NCBI RefSeq assembly: GCF_009914755.1 | Contig: NC_060933.1 | Strand: one strand, 5' to 3' | Source of the DNA: the human T2T-CHM13v2.0 reference genome, Homo sapiens | DNA length: 64,000 nucleotides | Shown: one piece after another, positions 2,180 to 40,449 of the stretch | How positions within the stretch are numbered: position 1 is the stretch's first letter | How the letters are laid out: every line of letters begins with the position of its first letter | Notes under the pieces: model-generated | Databases searched by the model: none | What the model saw: only the letters and a program-made list of their open reading frames with translations | What the model was told of the DNA's origin: nothing | Position numbers and translations under genes: made by a program

Positions 2180-3185
2180 AACCTGAAGAATTTCTTGTAA
2201 TATTTAATTCAAGAAAGGTCTAATAGCAACAAATTCTCTCAGTTTTTGTTATCTGAGAAAGTCTTTATTTCTCCTTCACTTTTGAAAGATAATTCCACAG
2301 GTTCCAGAATTCTAGATGCATGGTTTTTTCCTCTCAACACTTTTTATATTTCATTCCACTCTTCTTGCTAGCATGGCTTCTATGGATAAGTTAGATGTAA
2401 TTCTTTTCTTTCCTCTTCTAGAAGGTAAAGTTTTATCCCCCCACTGGACATTTTCAAAAGTTGTTCTTTATCATTGTTTCTATAATTTAAATATAATGCA
2501 CCCAGGTGTAGCATTTTTTTCATTTATTTTGCATGTTGCTCTCTGAGTTCCTTGGATCAATGGTTTGGTGTCTAACATTAATTTCGGGGAATTTTTAGTC
2601 ATTCTTGCTTCAAATATTTCTTCTGCTCCTTTTCTTTTAATTTGTCTTCTAATATTCTTATTAAGCAAAAGTTACACCTTTTACAGTTGTCACATAGTTC
2701 CTGGATATTCTGTTCCATTTTTTCAACTTTTTTCTTCTTGCTCTTCAGTCTTTAAAGTTTCTGTAAAGACATACTCAAGCTCACTTTCTTCAGCCATCTT
2801 CAGTCTACTGTGAGCCCACCAAAAACAATCTTCATTTCTTTTATAGTGTTTTTAATGCCTGGCATTTCACTCTGGTTTTTTTTCTTAGAACTGCTATCTC
2901 TCTGCTTTCATTACCTATCTGTTATGCATGCTGTCTACTTTATTTATTAGCACCTGTAGAATATTAATCAGAGGTACTTCACATTCCCAGTTGTTCACAT
3001 TCTGAGAAAATGGAGGTGAAATTTTTAAAAATTCCCCATTGTTAATTCCAATTTCTTGTCACACCAGGTTCAATTCTAATGGGTGCTATGTCTCTTCAAC
3101 TAAGTATTTGCCTTTTAGTATGTCTTATAATTTTCTCTTGATAGGCATAATAAACTTGGTAAAAAGAACTATGGTAATTATTAAG
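2180..3185 (-). mobile_element. Old L1M ORF1 fragment
   Basis: ORF1-like peptide 2480-2668 (GAEEIFE..M..N.PKLM.DTKP.IQ). Confidence 0.7.
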
Positions 3186-3224
3186 AATTGTTGTAGTAAG
3201 ATGTGGGGGAATTTGAGACTGGAG

Positions 3225-3970
3225 TTGGGAAGGTGAACAAGAGCTGAGTAAAAAATTCTAAGAAGGCAAGTGGTGAAAGAACTGGAGCTGGAACCACTGA
3301 CTCAAGTTGAGTGACAGACTGAAGGTTATAAAAGCCCAGTTGAGCCAGGAAGAGAGAGCAGCATTAGGCCCAGGATAGGCACACACACACAGGTTGGTAG
3401 GTGACAACAGCAGTTCCCAGAAAAAGGCTGAAGGTTCAGAGCAAAAGAGTCTAGGCCCAGGAAGCTCAGTCTGTTCTTGTCCAACCTGCTAAGAGTCTGG
3501 GTGCTACTGAGCCAGTTAACCATTTAGATCAAAGCCAGCTCAATTAAATGTCTGCCTAAATGGTCATGTAACAACACAATTGTGAGTGGCCTTGAGGTCT
3601 TCCGCAGGAAAACTTAATGGAGGATCTTCAATATCCAGGAGAAGCTGGTACTGGGACCTGGAGGACTGTCAGGTGAGAGTTCCTACTCCTGACTAGTTCT
3701 GTACTTTCCATTGGTTGCCCTCAAGCTGCTGACCAATCACTGCTCCCAAGGCCCTACTTGAAATCTCATTGACTGCCCACACTCAGTCCTCACTCTGCCA
3801 TTGCTGGTGCCCAAATGTTTAAACTTTTCCTTTGTAACTTGCTGTTATTGAAAGGATTTCACCTGTATTGAAAGGATTTCACAGTAACTACTTTTAGTAG
3901 CTATTAATAGGTCCTTGATCATGAGTAGTTTCAGTAGTCTAAGAAGTTGTGAAAAGCCAGATTAAATTTA
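3225..3970 (+). pseudogene. Relaxin/INSL4-family unprocessed pseudogene remnant P1 (promoter, 5'UTR, exon-1 coding segment 3462-3672, intron start)
   Basis: Colinear with the reverse complement of RLN2 39950-39250; AGGCCCAGG-AAG replaces AGGCCCAGG-ATG; reads KLSLFLSNLLRVWVLLSQLTI*...QEKLVLGPGGLS; 211 nt to donor AG|GTGAGAGTTCC (RLN2 GTGAGAGCTCC); TAGTCTAAGAAGT 3935-3947 matches RLN2 intron 38500-38488. Confidence 0.88.
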
Positions 3971-4175
3971 AAGTACACAAGTCTTTAAAGTCTTTAATAT
4001 GTAAACAGCCATTGTTAACATCTAAGAGGATAATATCGCCATTTTCTATTATTATTATTATATTGGTTCACCAAACTAGCATATGTAACACAGCTTTGGA
4101 CATATTGCATTTAAATATTGCTTCACTTGTTCTATCTGTTTTTAAACTATTTTGAAGCAATTTTTAATATTTGCA

Positions 4176-4795
4176 TTACCAAACCAAACTTGGGTCAGCT
4201 TGACTGCCACAGCAAAGGCAAACACACACTCCTAGGCTTATAGAGAGATTAAAAAAAAAAAAAAAACAAACAAAAAGGCATTTATTGCAGAGCAGAAAAC
4301 GAGGAGAACTGGCAGGTAACATTTAAGACCAAAACTCCCTGATAGCTTACAAGCAAAAGATTGTTAAAGGCTGAGGTAAGGGGGCTCTCTAAAGTGAGTT
4401 AGGGCTGAGGAATTTCTGGAATTTCCTCATCTACTTTCGGGTTCCGGTCTGTCTGAGGTTCCATTCTGTTTGAGGTCTATGTGACAGCAATCAGCATTTT
4501 TCGTGCAGTGGTAGTCCTTGATTCTGAAAAAAATTCGAGGATATATGTCAAGATGTTACCACTAGGTTATACAGGAAACCAAACATCTTGTGACTCTAAT
4601 TTACACAAGGTTGATTGTCTAAGTTATTATTACCTTCTTGCTGAGCAGGTTATTTATTCACGTCACCAGTTGCTGGTTGCAAAGGAAGCTAGATGAATGG
4701 AATTTCCCTTGAAGGGACCCAAATCTTTCTGTATTCCCATGCTTTGAAGAGGCGATAGGGACCTGGCAGGCCCTTAAGAGGCATTCCTACTCCAT
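4176..4795 (-). mobile_element. Probable ERV-class solo LTR
   Basis: GGCATTTATTGCAG...AAGACCAAAACTCCCTGATAGCTTACAAG resembles MER4-group LTRs; family not resolved. Confidence 0.45.
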
Positions 4796-4928
4796 CCAAT
4801 ATGCAATCTCCCTCTCACTGTAAGAAAATCTGCCAAATCTCCTTCAGCAATCCACATTTTGATTCACCAACAGTAGGTAAACTAATGGTTTGCAAATGTG
4901 CTCTAATGAAAGAAATTCAGTAAGATTG

Positions 4929-5170
4929 ATAATAATAATAAAAGCTAACATTTGATACTTTTTTGCTAAATGTCAAGCATTATGCTAAATGCTTAACATG
5001 ATTTATCTAACAATTCTTACAACAATGCCACAGAGTACATATTATTGTCCCCATTTTACCAATGAGAGGACTGAGGCACAGTGAGGTGAAGCTAATTTCT
5101 TACGGTAACACAGCTAAGTGGTTGAGTAGGAATATAAACCAAGCAGTCTGATTTCACAATTGCCACTCTT
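4929..5170 (-). mobile_element. MIR SINE
   Basis: MIR core CCCATTTTACCAATGAGAGGACTGAGGCACAG. Confidence 0.8.
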
Positions 5171-5641
5171 CAAAAATTTTATACGCCTTCCTAATCAAAT
5201 TTATCTATGGAACTCCTTTCCAGCTCACATATTCCTTAAGATGTCATCATTTTATAAAATAGCTTGCTCCTTTCTTTCCATGGACCCTCCAGTAATCCAT
5301 AGTTGTCTGAATGGTATCTCTGTATAGATGAGTATAGGTCTCTTTAAGAGGTCACCACGAAGTAGAATGACATTATATACATCTGCCTCATGAAAGTGGC
5401 AGCCAGGGAGGATTTATTTTAAAGTACTTACTCGTACTAAGAGATACAGTAGCTAGTTGATAACTCATTTGAGTTTACCTATTTTGAACATACTCTGTCT
5501 TCACTTTTATCAGAAATAACTGGCTTTTCTTGAGATCCAGTTTTCTATCTATGAATAAAGATTACATGTTTCCTAGCTAATAATTTTCTGTCGCAATTCT
5601 GGGTATCTTTCTATCTATCTATATAGTCACACATCTCTTAA

Positions 5642-7023
5642 CTATGGGGAAAATGTCTCCAGGGAACTTCAGAGATATTCAGGGCAGCACCCCCACACCT
5701 CCATCACAGGTCTAGAGGCCTAGGATGGAAAAATGGTTTCGTGGGCCAGGCCCAGGGCCCCACTGCTCTGTGCAGCCTTGGGACATGATGCCCTGCATCC
5801 CAGCTGCTCCAGCTCCAGCTGTGGCTAAAAGGAGCCAAGGTATAGCTCAGGTCACTTCTTCCGAGGGTGCAAGCCCCAAGCCTTGAGAGCTTCCACAGGT
5901 GTTGGGCCTGCAGGTGTGCAGAGTGTGATAGATGAGGTTTGGGAACCTCCACCTAGATTTCAGAGAATGTATGAAAACACCTGGATTTTCAGGCAGAAGT
6001 AGGTTGTAGGGACAGAGCCCTCATGGAGAACCTCTACTAGGAACTGCAGAGGGGAAACGTAGGGTTGAAGCCTCCACACAGAATCCCCACTAGGACACTG
6101 TCTAGTGCAGCTGTGAGAAGAGGACCACCTTTCTCCAGATGCCAGAATGGTAGATCCATCAACAGTTTGCACCATAGGCCTGGAAAAGCTGCAGGCACCC
6201 AACACCAGCCCATGAAAGCAGCCTCAGGGGCTGTATTCTGCAGAGCCATGGGGGCAGAGCCGCCCAGAGCCTTGGGAGCCCACCTCTTGCATTAGCGTGA
6301 CCTGGATGTGAGATACGGAGTCAAAGGAGATTATATTGGAGCTTTAAGATTTAATGACTGCCCTACTGGGGTTCATACTTGCTTGGGGCCTGTAGCCCCT
6401 TTGTTTCGGCCCATTTCTCTTATTTGGAATGGGAGCATTTACCCAAGGCCTGTACCTGCCTTATATCTTGAAAGCAATTAACTTGTTTTTTTATGTTTAC
6501 AGGTTCATAGGCAGAAGGGACTTGCCTTGTCTCAGATGAGACTTTGGACTTGGACTTTCGAGTTAGCGCTGGAATGAGTTAAGACTTTGGGGAACTGTTA
6601 AGATGGGATAATTGTATTTTGCAATGTGAGAAGGACATGAGATTTGGGAGGGGCCGGGGCAGAATGATGTGGTTTGGCTCTGTGTCCCCCCCTAAATTTC
6701 ATGTCAAATTGTAATCCCCACACATAAGAGGAGAGATGTCATGGGAGGTGATTGGATCATAGGGTGGATTTCCCTATGCTGTTCTTGTGATAGTGAGTGA
6801 GTTCTCATAAGATCTGATGGTTTAAAAGTGTGGCACTTTCCTCCTTGCTCTCTCCTGCTGCCATGTAAGACATGCTTTGCTTTCCTTTCACCCTCTGCCA
6901 TAATTGTAAGTTTTCTGGGGCCTCCCCAGCCATGTAGAACTGTGAATCAATTAAACCTCTTTTCTTTGTAAATTACCCAGTCTCAGGTATTTCTTTATAG
7001 CAGTGTGAAAATAAACTAATACA
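5642..7023 (+). mobile_element. THE1/MSTA MaLR: 5'-truncated internal region (5642-6664) and 3' LTR (6665-7023)
   Basis: MaLR internal motifs, polypurine tract GGGAGGGGCCGGGGCAGAA, LTR TGATGTGGTTTGGCTCTGTGTCCCC...AACTAATACA; no 5' LTR. Confidence 0.88.
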
Positions 7024-7074
7024 TTGATGTAACATGAAGACAGTACTGTAATGCACCCTACCTCCTTCAGGTCT

Positions 7075-7290
7075 CTAGGCAGCACTTCCTCCCCAAAGCT
7101 TCACCCTCCTTGGTGAGAAGAGCACCGAGAGCCTCTCAGTCAGGCAGCTTGCTGTTTCCACAACTTTCCTTCCCTTGGTGAGATTCTCAGTGAGACCCTT
7201 TCAATAGAAACACATTACAAAATAAAAATCCGATCTTTACCACCACAGTAGAGTGGGGACTGAGTGTGAGCAGCCAATGGGATCTCCAAC
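7075..7290 (-). pseudogene. Relaxin-family remnant P2, intron-1 segment (homologous to RLN2 ~39140-39367)
   Basis: GGTGAGATTCTCAGTGAGAC 7177-7196 vs 39251-39270 (19/20); CAGCCAATGGGATCTC 7271-7286 vs 39350-39365 (15/16). Confidence 0.82.
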
Positions 7291-7449
7291 AGAGTGTTTG
7301 GACTGTGGTTATGACTGGTGGATGGGGCGTCTGCCCTCCAAAGATCCTGACAAGGTTGAGAAAATACAGGGGCCTCTAGAGTTGATCTTAAGTCTTAGTG
7401 AAGTATTGACTTGGGGTCTTTTTACTTTTTACAGTGGTGGGAAATCAGA

Positions 7450-7605
7450 TTCTATCAGTTTCTAGTAATTTCATACTTTCCTCTGACTCCTCTGGGCAAT
7501 TGGTTGATTGATAACAGTTGTGATTATTTAAATTGGAAATTGTATTTACCCTTAGAGATTGGAAAACACACACCCCTAGCAAACACACACACACCATAAA
7601 ATTAC
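7450..7605 (-). pseudogene. P2 upstream segment 1 (homologous to ~40330-40470)
   Basis: TTGATTG..GAGATTGGAAAACACACAC aligns to TTGATTG..GAGACTGGAGAACATACCACACAC. Confidence 0.65.
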
Positions 7606-7610
7606 AGGGG

Positions 7611-8782
7611 AGGATGATCATAATTCTGAAAGACAATCCCAAACACCATCATCCCAGTTGTTGAAATCCTGAGAGATCAAAATCTATAAAGCCAAAAATC
7701 TCAAAAATTCTAATCCTGTAAGATCAAAATCCCAAAAATATAATTCTAGGAAAAATAATATACAATTATTTAAAAGACACTTATTTACATTTTAAAGAGG
7801 GATATATCTGAAAATATAAAAATACAAGAGAACATTTTATAGGCCACACTGCACAATAAAATAGACAATAATAGCATACATACTTTTGCAAGCATGAACA
7901 CTCAGATATACCTATGGTAGTTGCATGAGTATGGGCAGATGAACTGTATTCATTTTTTTTAAAGGCCATAAAGTGAATTGTACAATGTATTTCACTATGA
8001 TTGGTGATTGTATGCACCCAGCTTTATAACTGCAATCCTCTGAAATGACATGATGTACACCTAAGTGTTTGGAGGAGAACAAGCAAAAACCATGAAGGGC
8101 CATCACATATTCAATCACTCAAAGAGCTGAAATCTTGAGAAATTTCATCTTTCACAAATGCAGATTTACAAAAAGGACATCTTTTCATTTATTGAGGAAG
8201 TTTCAGTGTTTTCACATACATGCAGAATGTTAACACACAAAGTCAGTGGTGTGATAATGGACTTTAGTGGAACCAAATTTCTGATACCCAAAGAGCAGAA
8301 GAAATGTCTATCCCAGCTCTCAGAGACCAATTTGCCTTCTGTGTTTGTTGTCTCCTAGCCCTGGGCTGATAGATTGTTGCCCACCAACACTGAGGCCAGA
8401 TCTTCTGTACATAGTCCATTGAGATTCACACACTAATCTCTTCTGGAAAAACCCTCACAGACACACCCAAAATAATACTTTGCCAGATTTCTGGATATTC
8501 CTTAATCTGGTCAAGTTGACACCTAAAATTAAGTCCACAAGACTTAATTGTCAACTTGGCAGCCACACACATCTCCTTAAACCATTCTTAAATTCCAAAT
8601 AAAAAGAATAACAAGGTAATAGTTTCATTTAATATAATGCAACTGTCCTGTGAGAGTGATTGTGGGCATTTCAGATGTTAGGGATTTTAGACATTAAGGA
8701 TTTCAACTTTAGAGATTTGTATTTTTAGGGATTCAGAATTATGGCATCCAGGATTATGTCTTTTAGGATTATGATCCAAACC
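7611..8782. mobile_element. Ricksha (MuDR-like) DNA transposon carrying an HERVL/MLT2 fragment
   Basis: Imperfect terminal inverted repeats GATCATAATTCTGAAAGAC.. / ..GTCTTTTAGGATTATGATCCAAACC; internal antisense MLT2 LTR start (GTCAAGTTGACACCTAAAATTAA) near 8510-8532. Confidence 0.8.
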
Positions 8783-35535: not shown

Positions 35536-38500
35536 CTGTTAAATTTAAAAAAAAAGGTGTATGTGAGGGTATATTCATGTCAAAGAGCACTCAGAAAAAC
35601 TATGAATGTTTGCATAGACAAAAAAGCATTGCCTCAGTATAAATTAAACATTGAAACAAAATAAGCAAGCATCCTAATATCTAAACACTTAGCTTACTTA
35701 CAGTTGGACACCTTAAAGTACCATAATTTTACCAAGGCTCTGCTTTACCCCATTGGTCCTCTCTCGTCTCTCTTCATGATCCCCTCAGTGCTTTTATCAT
35801 AGTACTTTTGACTCTCCCTGACATTAATCTGTCATCTTTCTGAAGTCATGTAAGTCACTGAAAACAGTTTGACCACAGCTAGTGGTCATTTTCTTGGATT
35901 CTTCTTAGTTAAGTCATTTTCTTCCATTGCTATGATTTATGATATTATGAGTTGTAATAGTAACCCTTGAAAAAGATATTACTTTAAGCTATTGAATATT
36001 TCATGGTGGGAAGTTACTCCTGGAGGATAAAGTTAAAGAGGCAGAATTTCCAACACCTCTGATCTAATCAGCAGGAGAAAGAAGTCTCTGATGTTCCTTA
36101 ACCATCTATTTAACAATTTGTCTTCCCCAGAGTATTTACTCCAAAACAATAGTATTTTATATGAAAGAGAGAAGTGGGTTAAAAGAACACTAACCAAAAA
36201 TCACTGATTTAAGAAGAGATTTGTATCTGCTGTGGAGTATGTGTACTGACTAATGTTTTCTGTTTGATATTTGTTCCAAAGCTGCAGATCATGCACTATG
36301 CAAGATCTGTGTGTCTCCTAGGAAGGGAGCCTGTTCTTACACAGCATCCCAGGCTGGCCAAATGTGAAGGCTGGGACTTGGGCTGGGAACCTGCTGGACA
36401 CCCAGCTGACATCTTCCTCCATCTTTGCACCCATTCAGCTCAGTTGAACATTCATTACCTGTTTCCATGTCTCTGGCACTGCCAGTTAAAAGATATAAAT
36501 TTATTTAAATGTTTCTTGCTCTCAAAAAGCTTACAGTGAGTTAAACCCTCTCCTAACCTTAACTGTCCTAATTATACAACTTAATAGTTTTATTTCACAA
36601 AGAAATTAGAAACACGATGATGTTTAAATTACAGTGAAAACCCATATCAGGTCTTGCTGCTCTTCTTCCTGGACAGGAAAACTCTCCATTAACAAGGCAT
36701 TACTCTTGAAATAATGAAAATAAAGAGAAGAGGGGAGTAAATCTAAGTGCGGGAGGCAGACACCTGGTTAACCACTGATGCCTGCTGATCAGAGGAAACC
36801 ACGACCCTTCACCTAGACAGCGGTGGTTCTGGGGCTGATCATTTCCTGAGTTTTCTGGCAAGAGATTCAGTTGTTCCCCTTCTAGCCAACAAAAAAATTC
36901 AACAATTGGAGTTTGACAGAGGAATAAAAAAAAACAAACTGTAGTATTTCATCCTTCCTCCCAACACTCTCCCTCATTCATGTTCTAAACTGGAAATGAC
37001 AGATGAGAATTTATATCGTTTTTGGTTAAATGAGAGGTTTTGGCATTTCCCCTCAGTAAGACATCCTAAGTTTAATTCAATTTCATCATAAAAACCTCTC
37101 TTTGATCCAACCTAAACTTTCTGTAGTTGGGGCCTTATTAAATACTGAAAGAAGCTGATGGTAATTTTCTATATACTTAAAGCCAGTTAAATGAGTCAGC
37201 CAAAACAGTTATAGTTTGTATTAGGTTTGTTCATAGGCTGTGTATTTTATACTTTTATTAAAATTATATTTTTAAACCTGTTTTGAAATATTTCATAATC
37301 CATAACACCTTTAGCTATGGAACCTAGGCTCAAAGAAAATATTCTGTCTGAATTCATACAAATACCCTTATTCACTTATTATTTTGGATGTAAATCTCAC
37401 TAAAATAGGCCTCTTCTGGTTTAAAGGGTATCTTATTTTTAAAAGGGATGCAGTGAATATGATTTTAGCACATATTGTAGGATGAAATGGATGGCTAACA
37501 ATGTAATAATGTGGAAGCAAATAGCAACTACCTAACAGTAGAAGTCTGAAAACTCAAATTAATCACAAATTACTGACATGTACTTCCAAAACGATTCCTA
37601 CCTAGTAATGGTAAACATTTGTCTTAATCTCCACCTGCAGGCAATATTTTCTGAGGTTACTTTCAGTTAAATTATACTGCACATCAATAAAGAAAATTCT
37701 TTAAAAATACTTTGTAATCTCATGTCTCTTCAAAGGAAATAAAAATGTAGCCATATCTATATACAAATGTGCTTAATGAAGTATTTTCAGCAACAATTTA
37801 GAAATAAACTAAATATCCACCAAAGAATCCTTAAGTGTATGTGGCAGATTTATGACAAAAAATACTACACAGGAATTTCAAATTGTGTTTTGGGATAATA
37901 ACAATGTGAGAAACTGCTCAAAGTATAATGGTGAGTGAAAATGCAAAAGATATATACATATACCTATCCAAATGTTAACATTTCTTTCCACTTACTTGTT
38001 TAATATAATTTCATTTTCTCATAAAATTCACATATACTTTTCAAAGTCCTTAATATCTACGAGTGCTTCTCATTTTTCACGCTGCATTAATGTACATTTG
38101 TCTTTAATAGGAGCATTACTACTTTTATAGTCAGAAAATGTGGAATAATAAAGCAAATGCAATGCAATCCGGTCTTCTCTACTTTTTATCACTAAATTCC
38201 TAGACGTTGTGGTATTTTTGTACTAATGTTATACAAAAGTCATGTAAAAACTGCCATTAAATAAATCAAACTCTAACAATGTAGAAAAGTAAATAACTTT
38301 AGAAGCATACTTTAAATCTCATAAAAGAGAAGTAAATGTATTTCTGTTAGAGTCATTTATATATAGTATATGCATATAGCCTATAAAATTTAGTTGCGGT
38401 TTATCATAAATTACATGTCATACTAATACAAAACACTTAGTATTTGCAACTGCGGTTACTTTCTCTGAATTTAATATGACCCGTTACACTTCTTAGACTA

Positions 38501-39186
38501 GTATATACCTCCATGAGTTTCCACTGCTACTTTATAAATACTAAAATATTTTTAAAAGCCATTTCAGATTGAGCTGTACTCAACTCTAAGAGCTTGCCTT
38601 TAAAGCAAACCCACTGCAGCTTCCAAATGCTTGAAAGCATCAGTAGGGTCTTCAGCTATGATGGTCTGAACGGCCTGCTTTCCTTGTCTCTGGTCCTCTT
38701 GAGTTTCTCCTAAAGGCATTCAAGCCTTTCCTTTCTCTTCCATCCCCTGCCTCACAAATGAACTTCAATACCCAGATCAAAGAAGCGGGAGGTCAGACTC
38801 TTTCCTTTGGGATTTTCTGTTTGTTTATTTTAAAGAACGTTTCCAATGGCAAAGGCCACAGCCCAACTTCTGGACTAGGAGAGTCATTAAGTGTAAGGCC
38901 CTTCCTGTCTTCCCATCACGGGACCCTCACAGAGACCTCAGAGTGTTGCCCCGTCCTACAGGCGCGCAAACAGGCTTGATAACTAGCGCGCCGCCTCAGT
39001 GTTTGTCCCCTCTCCTCTCTATCCGAGAAGCCCTGTTCAGGTGCCCCCACCAGCACGCCCGCTGTCTGGCCGCCTGGCTTTCCTGTGGGGTGCAGGAGTG
39101 CGCCCGGCCTCCTGCGGGTCTCCGGGCGGCGTCACCTCCTCTGAGGCTTCCCCTCCCTTTCCACCCCGTCGCTCTGACTGCCTTAC

Positions 39187-39287
39187 GGAAAGGGCACCAA
39201 GGAACTCTCGGGTGAAGCAGCTTCCTGTTCTCAGTGCTTTCCCTCCGTCCGGTGAGATTCCCAGTGAGACTGTTTGAATAAAATCAC
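39187..39287 (-). CDS. RLN2: RLN2 101-nt alternative cassette exon (frameshifted 117-aa isoform lacking the A chain)
   Basis: Acceptor TTTCCTTTGCCAG|GT at 39288/39287, donor TCC|GTAAGG at 39187/39186; encodes [34 protein letters not shown], then exon 2 reads [13 protein letters not shown] (TAA 35496-35494); matches the known relaxin splice variant. Confidence 0.9.
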
Positions 39288-39460
39288 CTGGCAAAGGAAA
39301 AGCCCAAACTTTAGGGACCAGCCACGGCTGAGTAGGGGCTGAGCGGTGGCAGCCAATGAGATCTCGAGTCGGACGTGCAGGCCGCCGTTCCAATTGGGCG
39401 GCCGCCCCAGAGTAACCAATGGGAAGCGCGGGAAGGCCGGGAGGGGGCGGGAGCTCTCAC

Positions 39461-39671
39461 CTGCCACTGGTCTAGGTGTCTGAGGAGCATCTTCCTGGCT
39501 CAGAGACCTTTTGCTCCAGGTGCTCATGCCGCAAATGGCAATCTGCGCGCGAACTAATTCGCGGCCGCATAATTTAATAACTTCCTCCATCCATGAGTCC
39601 GCGACTGCTCTGGAAAATTGGTTCAGTAGTAAACAGACTCCTAGCAGGTGGAAAAAAAACAGGCGAGGCAT
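39461..39671 (-). CDS. RLN2: Relaxin-2 (preprorelaxin H2) coding exon 1: signal peptide, B chain, start of C peptide
   Basis: ATG at 39671; [70 protein letters not shown]; H2-type B chain ([17 protein letters not shown]); donor CAG|GTGAGA at 39461/39460, phase 1; 211 nt. Confidence 0.99.
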
Positions 39672-39950
39672 CCTGGGCCTGGTCTCTCCTGGAGGTCGGG
39701 ACGTTGCAGCCTTTCAGGACTGCAGCTGCTGTGGCCTACACACCTGGGCCTGTGTGCCTGTCCCGGGCTTTAGGCTGCTTTCCCTACCCGGCTCAAGCGG
39801 TCTTTTGTATCCCTTGGGCTATCACTCAGCTTTTAAGGCAAGGGTGCCAGCTCCACCCCTTTCCCACACCCCTCCACAGAATTTTCCCCCTCAGCTCTTG
39901 GTCTCCCTCTCTGCCTTTCCTTCATTTGCCCATCCCTCTGTCCTTGGCCC
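39672..39950 (-). promoter_or_regulatory. RLN2: RLN2 5'UTR and core promoter (degenerate TATA: TACAAAAG at 39809-39802)
   Basis: Immediately upstream of the ATG; aligns to P1, where the same position reads TATAAAAG. Confidence 0.6.
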
Positions 39951-40449
39951 TTTTACAGTTGTGTTCTTCTCATTCATTACCCTCAAACAATTTAGTATAC
40001 TGAGGTAAAGTCATTTTAGATATGAAGCCTTTCCTTTTACACACACAGAAACAAATTTGAGATCACCCATATTCTTACAACTCAGTTTTCTAGAGTGAAC
40101 ATTTGCCAAAAAACCCTTCTAACCTAAATAAGATTATAGATTATCTTGTAAATTGGGTTAATTAGTATAGTGTTGGGTATATCAATCCATAAAAATATAA
40201 AAATAGAATGGATGAATAAATAAATTGTTGATGACAGGGAAAACTGATGACTTTTAATCTGAATGCAGGTAAAAACATTAAAATCCCCAGTAACATCATG
40301 TTAGGCTTGTGCAGTAATGTCTTTAATTTACAAAACAATTTCTCCATTGCACTTTCCTTCCACTCTTGGGGATAAATTTGATTGTAACTAGTTATCTGAA
40401 CATTTTAATTTAAAATTCTAATCTACATCTCTGGAGACTGGAGAACATA

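What the first reader, a model, noticed from the sequence alone, without database searches (positions are those of the whole stretch)
3225..3970. Hidden relaxin/INSL4-family pseudogene (P1) with preserved exon-1 architecture, opposite strand to RLN2
Seen: 3225-3880 aligns continuously to the RLN2 promoter, 5'UTR, exon 1 and intron start. The start context AGGCCCAGG-ATG has become AGGCCCAGG-AAG (3462), so no ORF is called. The segment from there to the donor GT (3673) is 211 nt, phase 1, exactly as in RLN2. It reads KLSLFLSNLLRVWVLLSQLTI*IKASSIKCLPKWSCNNTIVSGLEVFRRKT*WRIFNIQEKLVLGPGGLS. B-chain C47-G48 (TGC GGC) appears as TTC CGC, W52 as TAA, and Q59-E60 is kept. Known: the signal peptide resembles INSL4 (MASLFRSYLPAIWLLLSQLL), and INSL4 lies opposite to RLN2 in this cluster. 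Inference: this is a dead additional member of the cluster. A 20-bp tandem duplication (3846-3882) marks a ~700-bp intronic deletion, after which homology resumes at RLN2 ~38550. No exon 2 was found.
Basis: partly seen in the sequence, partly recalled or inferred. Interest (0 to 1): 0.85.

Follow-up and report, generated by a model that had tools for sequence, protein, structure and literature searches.

The report
Decayed relaxin-family pseudogene fragment near RLN2
This stretch is the decayed front end (promoter, first exon, start of intron) of an old, unannotated extra copy of a relaxin/INSL4-type hormone gene, one of several such relics in the human chromosome 9 relaxin cluster, and it can no longer make a protein.

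Summary
Window 3223-3866 (+) aligns continuously to the promoter, 5'UTR, exon 1 and intron start of RLN2 (nhmmer E 1.5e-55), RLN1 and INSL4. The start codon is AAG. The exon-1 equivalent is 211 nt up to an intact GT donor, as in RLN1/RLN2. It has two in-frame stops and has lost both B-chain cysteines. No exon 2 exists.

It is an unprocessed pseudogene fragment and is absent from RefSeq. It is not specifically INSL4-like. Trees place it as a third old lineage beside (INSL4, P4) and (RLN1, RLN2), and rooting with INSL6 is unresolved. Its divergence from RLN2 roughly equals that of INSL4 from RLN2.

A sister fragment (P3, chr9:5221084-5222624) matches P1 with 18 mismatches in 223 aligned sites (K=0.085) and keeps an exon-2 relic. 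Three more relics (P2, P4, P5) lie between INSL6 and RLN2.

The claimed resumption of homology after the 20-nt duplication is only marginal.

This is an ordinary gene-family graveyard piece, of modest interest for relaxin-family history.

The parts
2500..3197 (.). Old dispersed repeat that bounds the relic on its 5' side. It is not part of the gene copy.
   Evidence: 934 first-look candidates genome-wide. 40 were scored, at about 69-73% identity over w2500-2990. In 4 of those 40 loci an adjoining match continues to w3197.
3198..3461 (+). Promoter and 5'UTR equivalent of RLN2/RLN1/INSL4, including a TATAAAAG motif at 3327-3334 aligned to the RLN2 ATACAAAAG. Secure homology starts at about 3195-3225.
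   Evidence: Identity to RLN2 is 96/127 in w3331-3461. Alignment upstream of about 3195 has low posterior probability.
3462..3672 (+). Exon-1 coding equivalent, 211 nt, phase 1. AAG replaces ATG at 3462-3464. Stops are TAG at 3525-3527 and TAA at 3615-3617. Both B-chain cysteines and the R-x-x-x-R-x-x-I/V positions are lost.
   Evidence: It stays in register with RLN2: 44/108 at offset 0, matched by 0 of 5000 shuffles. There is no protein-level hit.
3673..3866 (+). Start of intron 1, with the GT donor retained at 3673-3674. It holds an ATTGG box (3710-3714), a CCAAT box (3733-3737) and a decayed third box (ATTGA at 3768-3772). These align with the boxes at the RLN2 internal start sites.
   Evidence: Identity to RLN2 is 127/193. 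w3642-3865 differs from P3 (chr9:5221084-5221312) at 18 of 223 aligned sites.
3846..3882 (+). Exact 17-nt direct repeat at a 20-nt period, at the point where homology to RLN2, INSL4, P4 and P3 stops. It marks a rearrangement or deletion junction.
   Evidence: One search shows the repeat. Searches show all alignments ending at 3863-3869.
3892..3973 (+). Possible remnant of mid-intron sequence (RLN2 w38546-38463). The support is marginal.
   Evidence: it is the best local match in the whole RLN2 intron, and 2 of 200 shuffles reach its score. E 0.14 to the co-linear place in INSL4; not found by the profile.
7043..7335 (-). P2, a second and separate relic on the opposite strand. It is the intron-1 start equivalent (RLN2 w39406-39090). 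The exon 1 and promoter equivalents are missing.
   Evidence: E 3e-25 to 8e-25; E 3.5e-37. Identity to P1 is only 108/182 in the shared part, so it is a different copy.
7474..7594 (-). Weak match to the RLN2 far-upstream region (w40473-40350), co-linear with P2.
   Evidence: E 9e-05; E 2e-04. It could be an old shared repeat.

Best explanation
P1 (window ~3198-3866, + strand) is the 5' fragment of an unprocessed pseudogene of the relaxin/insulin-like family, inside the chromosome 9p24 relaxin cluster.

It descends from an old tandem or inverted duplicate of the RLN/INSL4-type ancestor. That duplicate is about as old as the INSL4/RLN split. It forms its own lineage together with a sister fragment, P3, at chr9:5221084-5222624.

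The gene died and then decayed neutrally. The start codon was lost, two stops arose, both B-chain cysteines and the receptor-binding arginines were lost, and nearly all CpGs were lost. Its 3' part (most of the intron, and exon 2) was removed at a junction marked by a 20-nt tandem duplication at 3846-3882. An old repeat abuts its 5' side.

P1 and P3 separated, or were homogenised, at about the time RLN1 and RLN2 duplicated.

Shown: the homology, the layout, the disabling changes, the absence of exon 2, the sister copy and the distances. Inferred: that the lineage was once a working gene, the dating, and the deletion mechanism. It makes no hormone today.
For: Homology. One continuous alignment runs across promoter, 5'UTR, exon 1 and intron start, to RLN2 (E 1.5e-55), RLN1 (2.1e-53) and INSL4 (7.7e-44). 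Because non-coding flanks and intron sequence are retained, it is an unprocessed copy, not a retrocopy.

Layout. The ATG-equivalent to donor segment is 211 nt, as in RLN1/RLN2, and stays in register through the B-chain part.

Disabling changes are shown.

CpG loss. P1 has 1 CpG (observed/expected 0.03) against 28 in RLN2 (0.5). At the 28 RLN2 CpG sites, P1 has CA, TG or TA at 14.

Phylogeny. (P4, INSL4) has 95% support, (RLN1, RLN2) has 100%, and P1 is a separate long branch. P1 and P3 are sisters at 100%.

Distances (K2P). P1-RLN2 is 0.435-0.573, P1-INSL4 is 0.523-0.662 and INSL4-RLN2 is 0.404-0.554, depending on the columns used.

Timing of the P1-P3 split. P1-P3 has 18 mismatches in 223 aligned sites, K=0.085 +/- 0.02. 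RLN1-RLN2 outside their identical tract also gives K=0.085 (n=3743). PMC3971578 (abstract) dates the RLN1/RLN2 duplication to about 44.2-29.6 Ma. [quoted passage not shown]

P3 keeps an exon-2 relic (E 6.5e-09 to RLN2 exon 2, tblastn to INSL4 residues 66-111, E 0.039, one stop). So the P1/P3 ancestor had both exons.

No gene or pseudogene is annotated here, and no RLN/INSL pseudogene is annotated anywhere in RefSeq.
Against: At protein level nothing is detectable. tblastn with human RLN1, RLN2, INSL4 and INSL6 gives no hit at P1 at E<=1. Pfam gives 0 families for the two longer pieces. The live controls are also weak: RLN2 exon 1 alone scores below the Insulin cut-off, and INSL4 exon 1 alone gets 0 families.

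That the lineage ever encoded a working hormone is not shown. The lack of net indels in 211 nt is suggestive only.

The P1-P3 similarity covers just 230 columns, and both ends of it coincide with structural breaks. It could therefore come from gene conversion rather than a duplication at that date.

No other mammal's genome could be examined, so presence, absence and age rest on within-genome distances alone.
Confidence: 0.9

Rival explanations
1. P1 was never a gene of its own. It is a dead-on-arrival partial copy (or a gene-conversion product) made around the catarrhine ancestor from an already dead older pseudogene, the P3 lineage. On this reading only one extra ancient paralogue existed, and P1 is a secondary fragment of it.
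For: P1 and P3 share only w3642-3865. They differ there at 18 of 223 aligned sites (K=0.085), the same K as RLN1-RLN2. No flanking homology at that level is seen. P3 carries the exon-2 relic that P1 lacks.
Against: P1 holds the promoter and nearly all of exon 1, which P3 lacks. A source copy with those parts therefore existed, and P1 may equally be the original and P3 the secondary copy. Both ends of the shared stretch are later breaks: a repeat at chr9:5221084 and the duplication junction at w3866. The original shared length is therefore unknown.
Confidence: 0.35
2. The fragment survives because it was taken over as a regulatory or non-coding element, for example a promoter of a non-coding RNA or part of an enhancer.
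For: A TATA-like motif and two of three CCAAT/ATTGG boxes are retained. In RLN2 the same boxes sit at or just upstream of internal RefSeq transcript starts at w39356 and w39319. RefSeq lists a NANOG-H3K27ac hESC enhancer at w4176-4711, about 300 bp downstream.
Against: CpG depletion to 0.03 observed/expected and about 35-40% divergence look like neutral decay. No transcript is annotated. The enhancer interval does not overlap P1, and most of it lies in an old dispersed repeat at w4272-4803. There is no Rfam match. No expression or conservation data could be consulted.
Confidence: 0.07
3. The similarity is due to chance or to a repeat family, and there is no gene relic.
For: None beyond the absence of protein-level hits.
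Against: E-values of 1e-43 to 1e-57 against three paralogues, in one co-linear piece. The genome-wide search returns only cluster members. The alignment keeps register through the coding part. The region is not masked.
Confidence: 0.01

Closest known systems
RLN2 and RLN1 (human relaxin genes), 5' region and exon 1
   Same: Co-linear promoter, 5'UTR, 211-nt phase-1 exon-1 coding part, GT donor and intron-start boxes. Local identity is about 70-71%. P1 lies in the same gene cluster.
   Different: P1 is on the opposite strand. It has no start codon, two stops and no B-chain cysteines. Exon 2 and most of the intron are absent, and CpGs are lost. It is not nested in the RLN clade.
INSL4 (early placenta insulin-like peptide gene)
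   Same: Same strand and same cluster. The signal-peptide equivalent shares 11 of 21 residues. P1 shares two small 5'UTR length differences with INSL4 and P4 against RLN.
   Different: INSL4 exon-1 coding is 196 nt, not 211. INSL4 has a roughly 42-nt gap after the donor that P1 lacks. Local identity is 67%. INSL4's true sister relic is P4, not P1. INSL4 has a mobile element just upstream of its promoter (RefSeq feature), which P1 lacks.
INSL4 pseudogenes of non-primate mammals and the 'ps' copies catalogued in primate relaxin-cluster studies (Arroyo, Hoffmann, Opazo and co-workers)
   Same: The same kind of object: decayed members of the relaxin family locus B, used to infer birth-and-death evolution. 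PMC3971578's methods define such pseudogenes. The title of the J Mol Evol 2012 paper was seen only in reference lists.
   Different: I could not read those catalogues, so I cannot say whether P1 or its sisters are listed. The parts of PMC3971578 and PMC551602 that I read name no human pseudogene. PMC551602 states that searches of the human genome found no novel relaxin-like peptides.

Membership tests
Relaxin/insulin-like (RLN/INSL) gene family, relaxin family locus B | Lies within the INSL6-INSL4-RLN2-RLN1 cluster on 9p24 | tested here: met
   P1 is at chr9:5273198-5273866, between INSL4 (5236508-5240393) and RLN2 (5304955-).
Relaxin/insulin-like (RLN/INSL) gene family, relaxin family locus B | Significant sequence homology to family members | tested here: met
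   At DNA level: nhmmer E 1.5e-55 (RLN2), 2.1e-53 (RLN1) and 7.7e-44 (INSL4). At protein level it is not met: no tblastn hit at E<=1.
Relaxin/insulin-like (RLN/INSL) gene family, relaxin family locus B | Two-exon gene with a phase-1 intron after the B-chain/C-peptide start | tested here: inconclusive
   The exon-1 half is met: 211 nt, GT donor, same register. Exon 2 is absent from P1. An exon-2 relic exists only in the sister copy P3.
Relaxin/insulin-like (RLN/INSL) gene family, relaxin family locus B | B-chain cysteine pair and, for relaxins, the R-x-x-x-R-x-x-I/V motif (motif as named in PMC551602) | tested here: not met
   At the RLN2 positions C35, C47, R37, R41 and I44, P1 reads S, F, N, V and L. 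This is expected for a decayed copy.
Relaxin/insulin-like (RLN/INSL) gene family, relaxin family locus B | Pfam Insulin/IGF/Relaxin domain (PF00049) | tested here: not met
   The 21-aa and 29-aa pieces give 0 families at E<=10. The controls are weak: RLN2 exon 1 scores 21 bits, below the 23-bit cut-off, and INSL4 exon 1 gives 0 families. The test has little power on exon 1 alone.
Unprocessed (duplicated) pseudogene | Retains promoter and intron sequence of the parent type, with no poly-A or intron-less structure | tested here: met
   The alignment runs through promoter, 5'UTR, donor and 194 nt of intron.
Unprocessed (duplicated) pseudogene | Disabling changes in the reading frame | tested here: met
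   AAG for ATG, plus TAG and TAA in frame. There is no ORF of 40 aa or more in the gene frame.
INSL4 subfamily | Groups with INSL4 in a tree and shares INSL4's exon-1 length | tested here: inconclusive
   P1 lies outside (P4, INSL4) in the unrooted tree. With the INSL6 root, P1 with (INSL4, P4) gets only 43% bootstrap and 17% aLRT. Exon-1 length is 211 nt against 196.

The most novel reading that the evidence does not exclude
P1/P3, and separately P2, are the remains of relaxin-family hormone genes additional to INSL6, INSL4 and RLN. They would have arisen in the same early burst of duplications as INSL4. The relaxin-cluster repertoire of early placental mammals (or at least of stem primates) would then have been larger than the three genes usually reconstructed. 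An intact orthologue may still exist in some non-catarrhine lineage. P1 keeps the 211-nt exon-1 frame without net indels despite about 35-40% divergence. That would fit a period of life as a working gene.
Probability: 0.3. Interest if true: 0.5.

Novelty: new member of a known kind. Interest (0 to 1): 0.3.

Why it matters
The relaxin cluster is a textbook case of birth-and-death evolution. The timing of its duplications is still debated (PMC3971578).

Five unannotated relics (P1-P5) lie between INSL6 and RLN2. Three of them (P1/P3, P2, P4/P5) appear to be old separate lineages. They are extra data points for reconstructing how many paralogues existed and when they were lost. Their non-coding parts are free of the selection and conversion that confound coding trees.

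Practically, P1 should be annotated as an unprocessed pseudogene fragment. It has no bearing on hormone production. For a non-specialist this is an ordinary decayed gene copy.

Tried and rejected
Protein-level detection. tblastn of the four human cluster proteins against chr9:5186000-5334000 gave no hit at P1 at E<=1. Pfam found nothing for the P1 pieces.

The search for homologous proteins was not used. P1's open pieces are 21, 29 and 18 residues. The tool's length rule (0.55-1.75 times the query) would exclude every full-length relaxin-family protein. A read-through query is not accepted.

Exon 2 and more intron. nhmmer with the RLN2, RLN1 and INSL4 gene regions, a profile of four gene bodies, blastn at word size 7 and P3's downstream part as query all found nothing for P1 beyond 3868. 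The only exception is the marginal 3892-3973 match.

Rooting. An exon-1 coding tree with INSL6 as outgroup left P1's affinity unresolved. INSL6 non-coding sequence was not alignable (no nhmmer hit).

Repeat explanation. This was rejected. The flanks w2500-3197 and w4272-4803 are dispersed repeats but P1 is not.

Other checks. There is no known RNA family in 2500-8000. TRF missed the 20-nt duplication and the repeat finder showed it. No further relics were found in the stretches examined beyond RLN1 (5346001-5364000) or in the INSL6 gene and its flank (5140000-5149999, 5166000-5189999).

Literature. Searches found no paper naming a human relaxin-cluster pseudogene.
- PMC3971578: I read the abstract, Results part 1 and found passages.
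- PMC551602, PMC4987104 and PMC10877632: I saw found passages only.
- Not held and unread: Arroyo et al. 2012 (Mol Phylogenet Evol and J Mol Evol), Hoffmann and Opazo 2011 (no look-up tried) and Park et al. 2008. These are the papers most likely to list such copies.
- Supplementary Table S1 of PMC3971578 could not be seen and may bear on novelty.
- GENCODE/Ensembl pseudogene tracks could not be consulted.

Full report
THE OBSERVATION

I read window 3000-4300 (+) and the RLN2 exon-1 region 38400-40000 (-).

blastn of 2500-5500 against the window gave two matches to RLN2. 3229-3517 matched w39909-39616 at 70.9% identity, and 3753-3853 matched w39372-39273 at 74.3%.

nhmmer joined these into one continuous alignment, 3223-3866 to RLN2 w39915-39260, at E 1.5e-55. 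The same stretch aligned to RLN1 (E 2.1e-53) and INSL4 (E 7.7e-44) (repeated from the P1 side).

- AAG stands at 3462-3464 where the three live genes have ATG, within the same preceding context.
- The GGTGAGAG donor is shared.
- The ATG-equivalent to donor segment is 211 nt, as in RLN2 and RLN1. INSL4 has 196 nt (coordinates from the annotation table).

It has stops at codons 22 (TAG, 3525-3527) and 52 (TAA, 3615-3617).

In the B-chain part the alignment to RLN2 is poor, but it is real and in register. Identity is 44 of 108 at offset 0. That is the best of 31 offsets, and none of 5000 shuffles reach it.

The 17-nt exact repeat at a 20-nt period at 3846-3882 is there.

A whole-genome search with 3200-3970 returned only P1 itself, one further place in the cluster and RLN1 (3 candidates, 3 scored). 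The stretch is not repeat-masked and carries no RefSeq gene. So this is neither chance nor a repeat.

LIMITS OF THE RELIC

On the 5' side, w2500-3197 belongs to an old dispersed repeat. There were 934 first-look candidates, of which 40 were scored at about 70% identity. In 4 of the 40, an adjoining match runs on to w3197. The alignments to INSL4 and RLN2 upstream of about 3195 have low posterior probability.

On the 3' side, every alignment (to RLN2, RLN1, INSL4, P4 and P3) stops at 3863-3869, inside the tandem duplication.

- w3892-3973 aligns to RLN2 w38546-38463, and this is the best local match in the whole RLN2 intron.
- 2 of 200 shuffles reach its score.
- blastn finds nothing to RLN2 there, and only E 0.14 to the co-linear place in INSL4.
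- A profile built from the gene bodies of RLN2, RLN1, INSL4 and P4 finds nothing past 3868.

No exon 2 was found by tblastn with the four human proteins, by nhmmer, or with the sister copy's downstream part as query.

WHAT IT IS

The copy keeps promoter, 5'UTR and intron sequence, so it is an unprocessed (duplicated) pseudogene fragment and not a retrocopy.

It is thoroughly dead:
- There is no start codon, and there are two in-frame stops.
- At the RLN2 positions C35, C47, R37, R41 and I44 it reads S, F, N, V and L.
- It has one CpG against 28 in the RLN2 counterpart. At 14 of those 28 sites P1 has CA, TG or TA.
- At protein level nothing is left to detect. Exon 1 of the live genes alone is itself barely detectable by Pfam.

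RELATIONSHIPS

Searching the cluster more widely changed the picture. I fetched chr9:5186000-5270000, joined it to the window, and searched it with the RLN2 and INSL4 gene regions and with P1. Besides P1 there are four more unannotated relics.

P2 is at window 7335-7043, on the - strand. It is the intron-start equivalent (E about 3e-25). A weak upstream match lies at 7594-7474. The promoter and exon 1 are missing between the two.

P3 is at chr9:5221084-5222624, on the + strand. It holds the last 31 nt of exon 1, the donor, the intron start, an Alu-like insert, an exon-2 relic at 5221902-5222048, and 3' flank.

P4 is at chr9:5201419-5197888, on the - strand. It is a near-complete INSL4-like copy.
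- It aligns to INSL4 at E 8e-278 and is 72% identical over 2 kb.
- It has ATA for ATG and GC for the donor GT.
- Its exon 2 has two in-frame stops but a recognisable A chain.

P5 is at chr9:5205785-5206798, on the + strand. It holds the 3' part of the intron and the sequence after exon 2, with the exon-2 coding part missing.

None of these is in RefSeq, which lists no RLN or INSL pseudogene anywhere. No further relic was found in the stretches I examined beyond RLN1 or in and beside INSL6.

In an ML tree of promoter plus exon 1 plus intron start, (P4, INSL4) has 95% support and (RLN1, RLN2) has 100%. P1 is a third, long branch.

In the intron-start tree, P1 and P3 are sisters at 100%. P2 and the others are unresolved.

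With INSL6 as outgroup on exon-1 coding sequence, P1 with (INSL4, P4) gets only 43%. Whether P1 is nearer to INSL4 or to RLN therefore cannot be decided here.

Nucleotide identity goes the other way, 41 against 44 of 63.

AGES (INFERENCE)

P1 and P3 differ at 18 of 223 aligned sites, giving K=0.085 +/- 0.02. RLN1 and RLN2 outside their identical tract give the same K=0.085 over 3743 sites.

The abstract of PMC3971578 dates the RLN1/RLN2 duplication to about 44.2-29.6 Ma. P1 and P3 therefore separated, or were last homogenised by conversion, in roughly that period.

The P1-P3 similarity ends on the left at a repeat in P3, and on the right at P1's duplication junction. Its original extent is unknown, and no flanking homology of that grade exists.

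The deeper split is old. K2P for P1-RLN2 is 0.435-0.573, and for INSL4-RLN2 it is 0.404-0.554, over the same column sets. [quoted passage not shown] The P1/P3 lineage would then be of similar age. This rests on within-genome distances only, because no other mammalian genome was available.

MECHANISM

The best-supported account has five steps.
1. An early duplicate of the RLN/INSL4-type gene arose in the cluster.
2. It lost function.
3. It decayed neutrally, with CpG loss.
4. A later small duplication or conversion linked P1 and P3.
5. Structural losses followed. P1 lost its 3' part at the 3846-3882 junction, and P3 lost its 5' part at a repeat.

Zero net indels in the 211-nt coding part contrasts with about six length differences in roughly 430 nt of flanks against RLN2. 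This hints at a period under coding constraint, but it is not statistically compelling.

COMPARISON WITH WHAT IS KNOWN, AND NOVELTY

This is a new, unannotated member of a well-known kind: a duplicated pseudogene in a birth-and-death gene family.

The literature I could read names no human relaxin-cluster pseudogene. PMC551602 states that searches of the human genome found no novel relaxin-like peptides.

The papers most likely to have catalogued such copies were not held, and supplements are closed. Prior description therefore cannot be excluded.

VERDICT

- P1 is not specifically INSL4-like.
- The resumption of homology after the duplication is marginal.
- P1 is one of at least five relics.

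Interest is modest.

Noticed in passing
window 7043-7335 (-) and 7474-7594 (-): P2 is a second, separate relaxin-family relic, convergent with P1. It keeps the intron-1 start (E 3e-25 to RLN2; E 3.5e-37 to a four-gene profile) and possibly far-upstream sequence. It lacks the promoter and exon 1. It is not annotated.
   Followed up: partly
chr9:5221084-5222624 (+), outside the window (locus L012): P3 is the sister of P1, with 18 mismatches in 223 aligned sites. It holds the last 31 nt of exon 1, the donor, the intron start, an Alu-like insert and an exon-2 relic with one stop. It is cut on its 5' side at a repeat. It is not annotated.
   Followed up: partly
chr9:5197888-5201419 (-), outside the window (locus L010): P4 is a near-complete, unannotated INSL4-like pseudogene between INSL6 and INSL4, with promoter, exon 1, intron and exon 2. 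It has ATA for ATG, GC for the donor GT and two in-frame stops in exon 2. Its A chain is still recognisable. It is about 72% identical to INSL4 over 2 kb. P5 at chr9:5205785-5206798 (+) is a further partial copy, about 74-79% identical to P4.
   Followed up: partly
window 38111-39581 (RLN2) and its RLN1 counterpart in L002: RLN2 and RLN1 are identical for 1471 consecutive bases, from inside exon 1 through the first ~1.35 kb of intron 1. The rest of the two genes differs by about 8%. This looks like a very recent gene-conversion tract in this haplotype. It would distort any RLN1/RLN2 tree that uses exon 1 or the early intron.
   Followed up: partly
window 39353-39420 (RLN2 intron-1 start) and the aligned blocks in P1, P2, P3, P4 and INSL4: The best-kept block across all seven copies is the start of intron 1, with three ATTGG/CCAAT boxes. 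In RLN2 it lies at or just upstream of internal RefSeq transcript starts (w39356 and w39319). It may be an internal, NF-Y-type promoter. That reading comes from general knowledge and was not tested.
   Followed up: no
window 4614-5650: This stretch is 83% identical over about 1 kb to a single intergenic place on chrX (86330097-86331145), with no gene annotated there. Its nature was not determined. The neighbouring w4272-4803 is an old dispersed repeat and covers most of the RefSeq 'NANOG-H3K27ac hESC enhancer' at w4176-4711.
   Followed up: no
chr9:5233146-5233628 and 5236136 onward (locus L001 and L013): The INSL4 upstream homology to RLN2 is split by about 2.5 kb of inserted sequence. The end of the insert coincides with the RefSeq 'mobile_genetic_element' at 5235785-5236130, just upstream of the INSL4 promoter. 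This fits the retroviral-element promoter named in a title cited in PMC3971578. I only noted it and did not analyse it.
   Followed up: no
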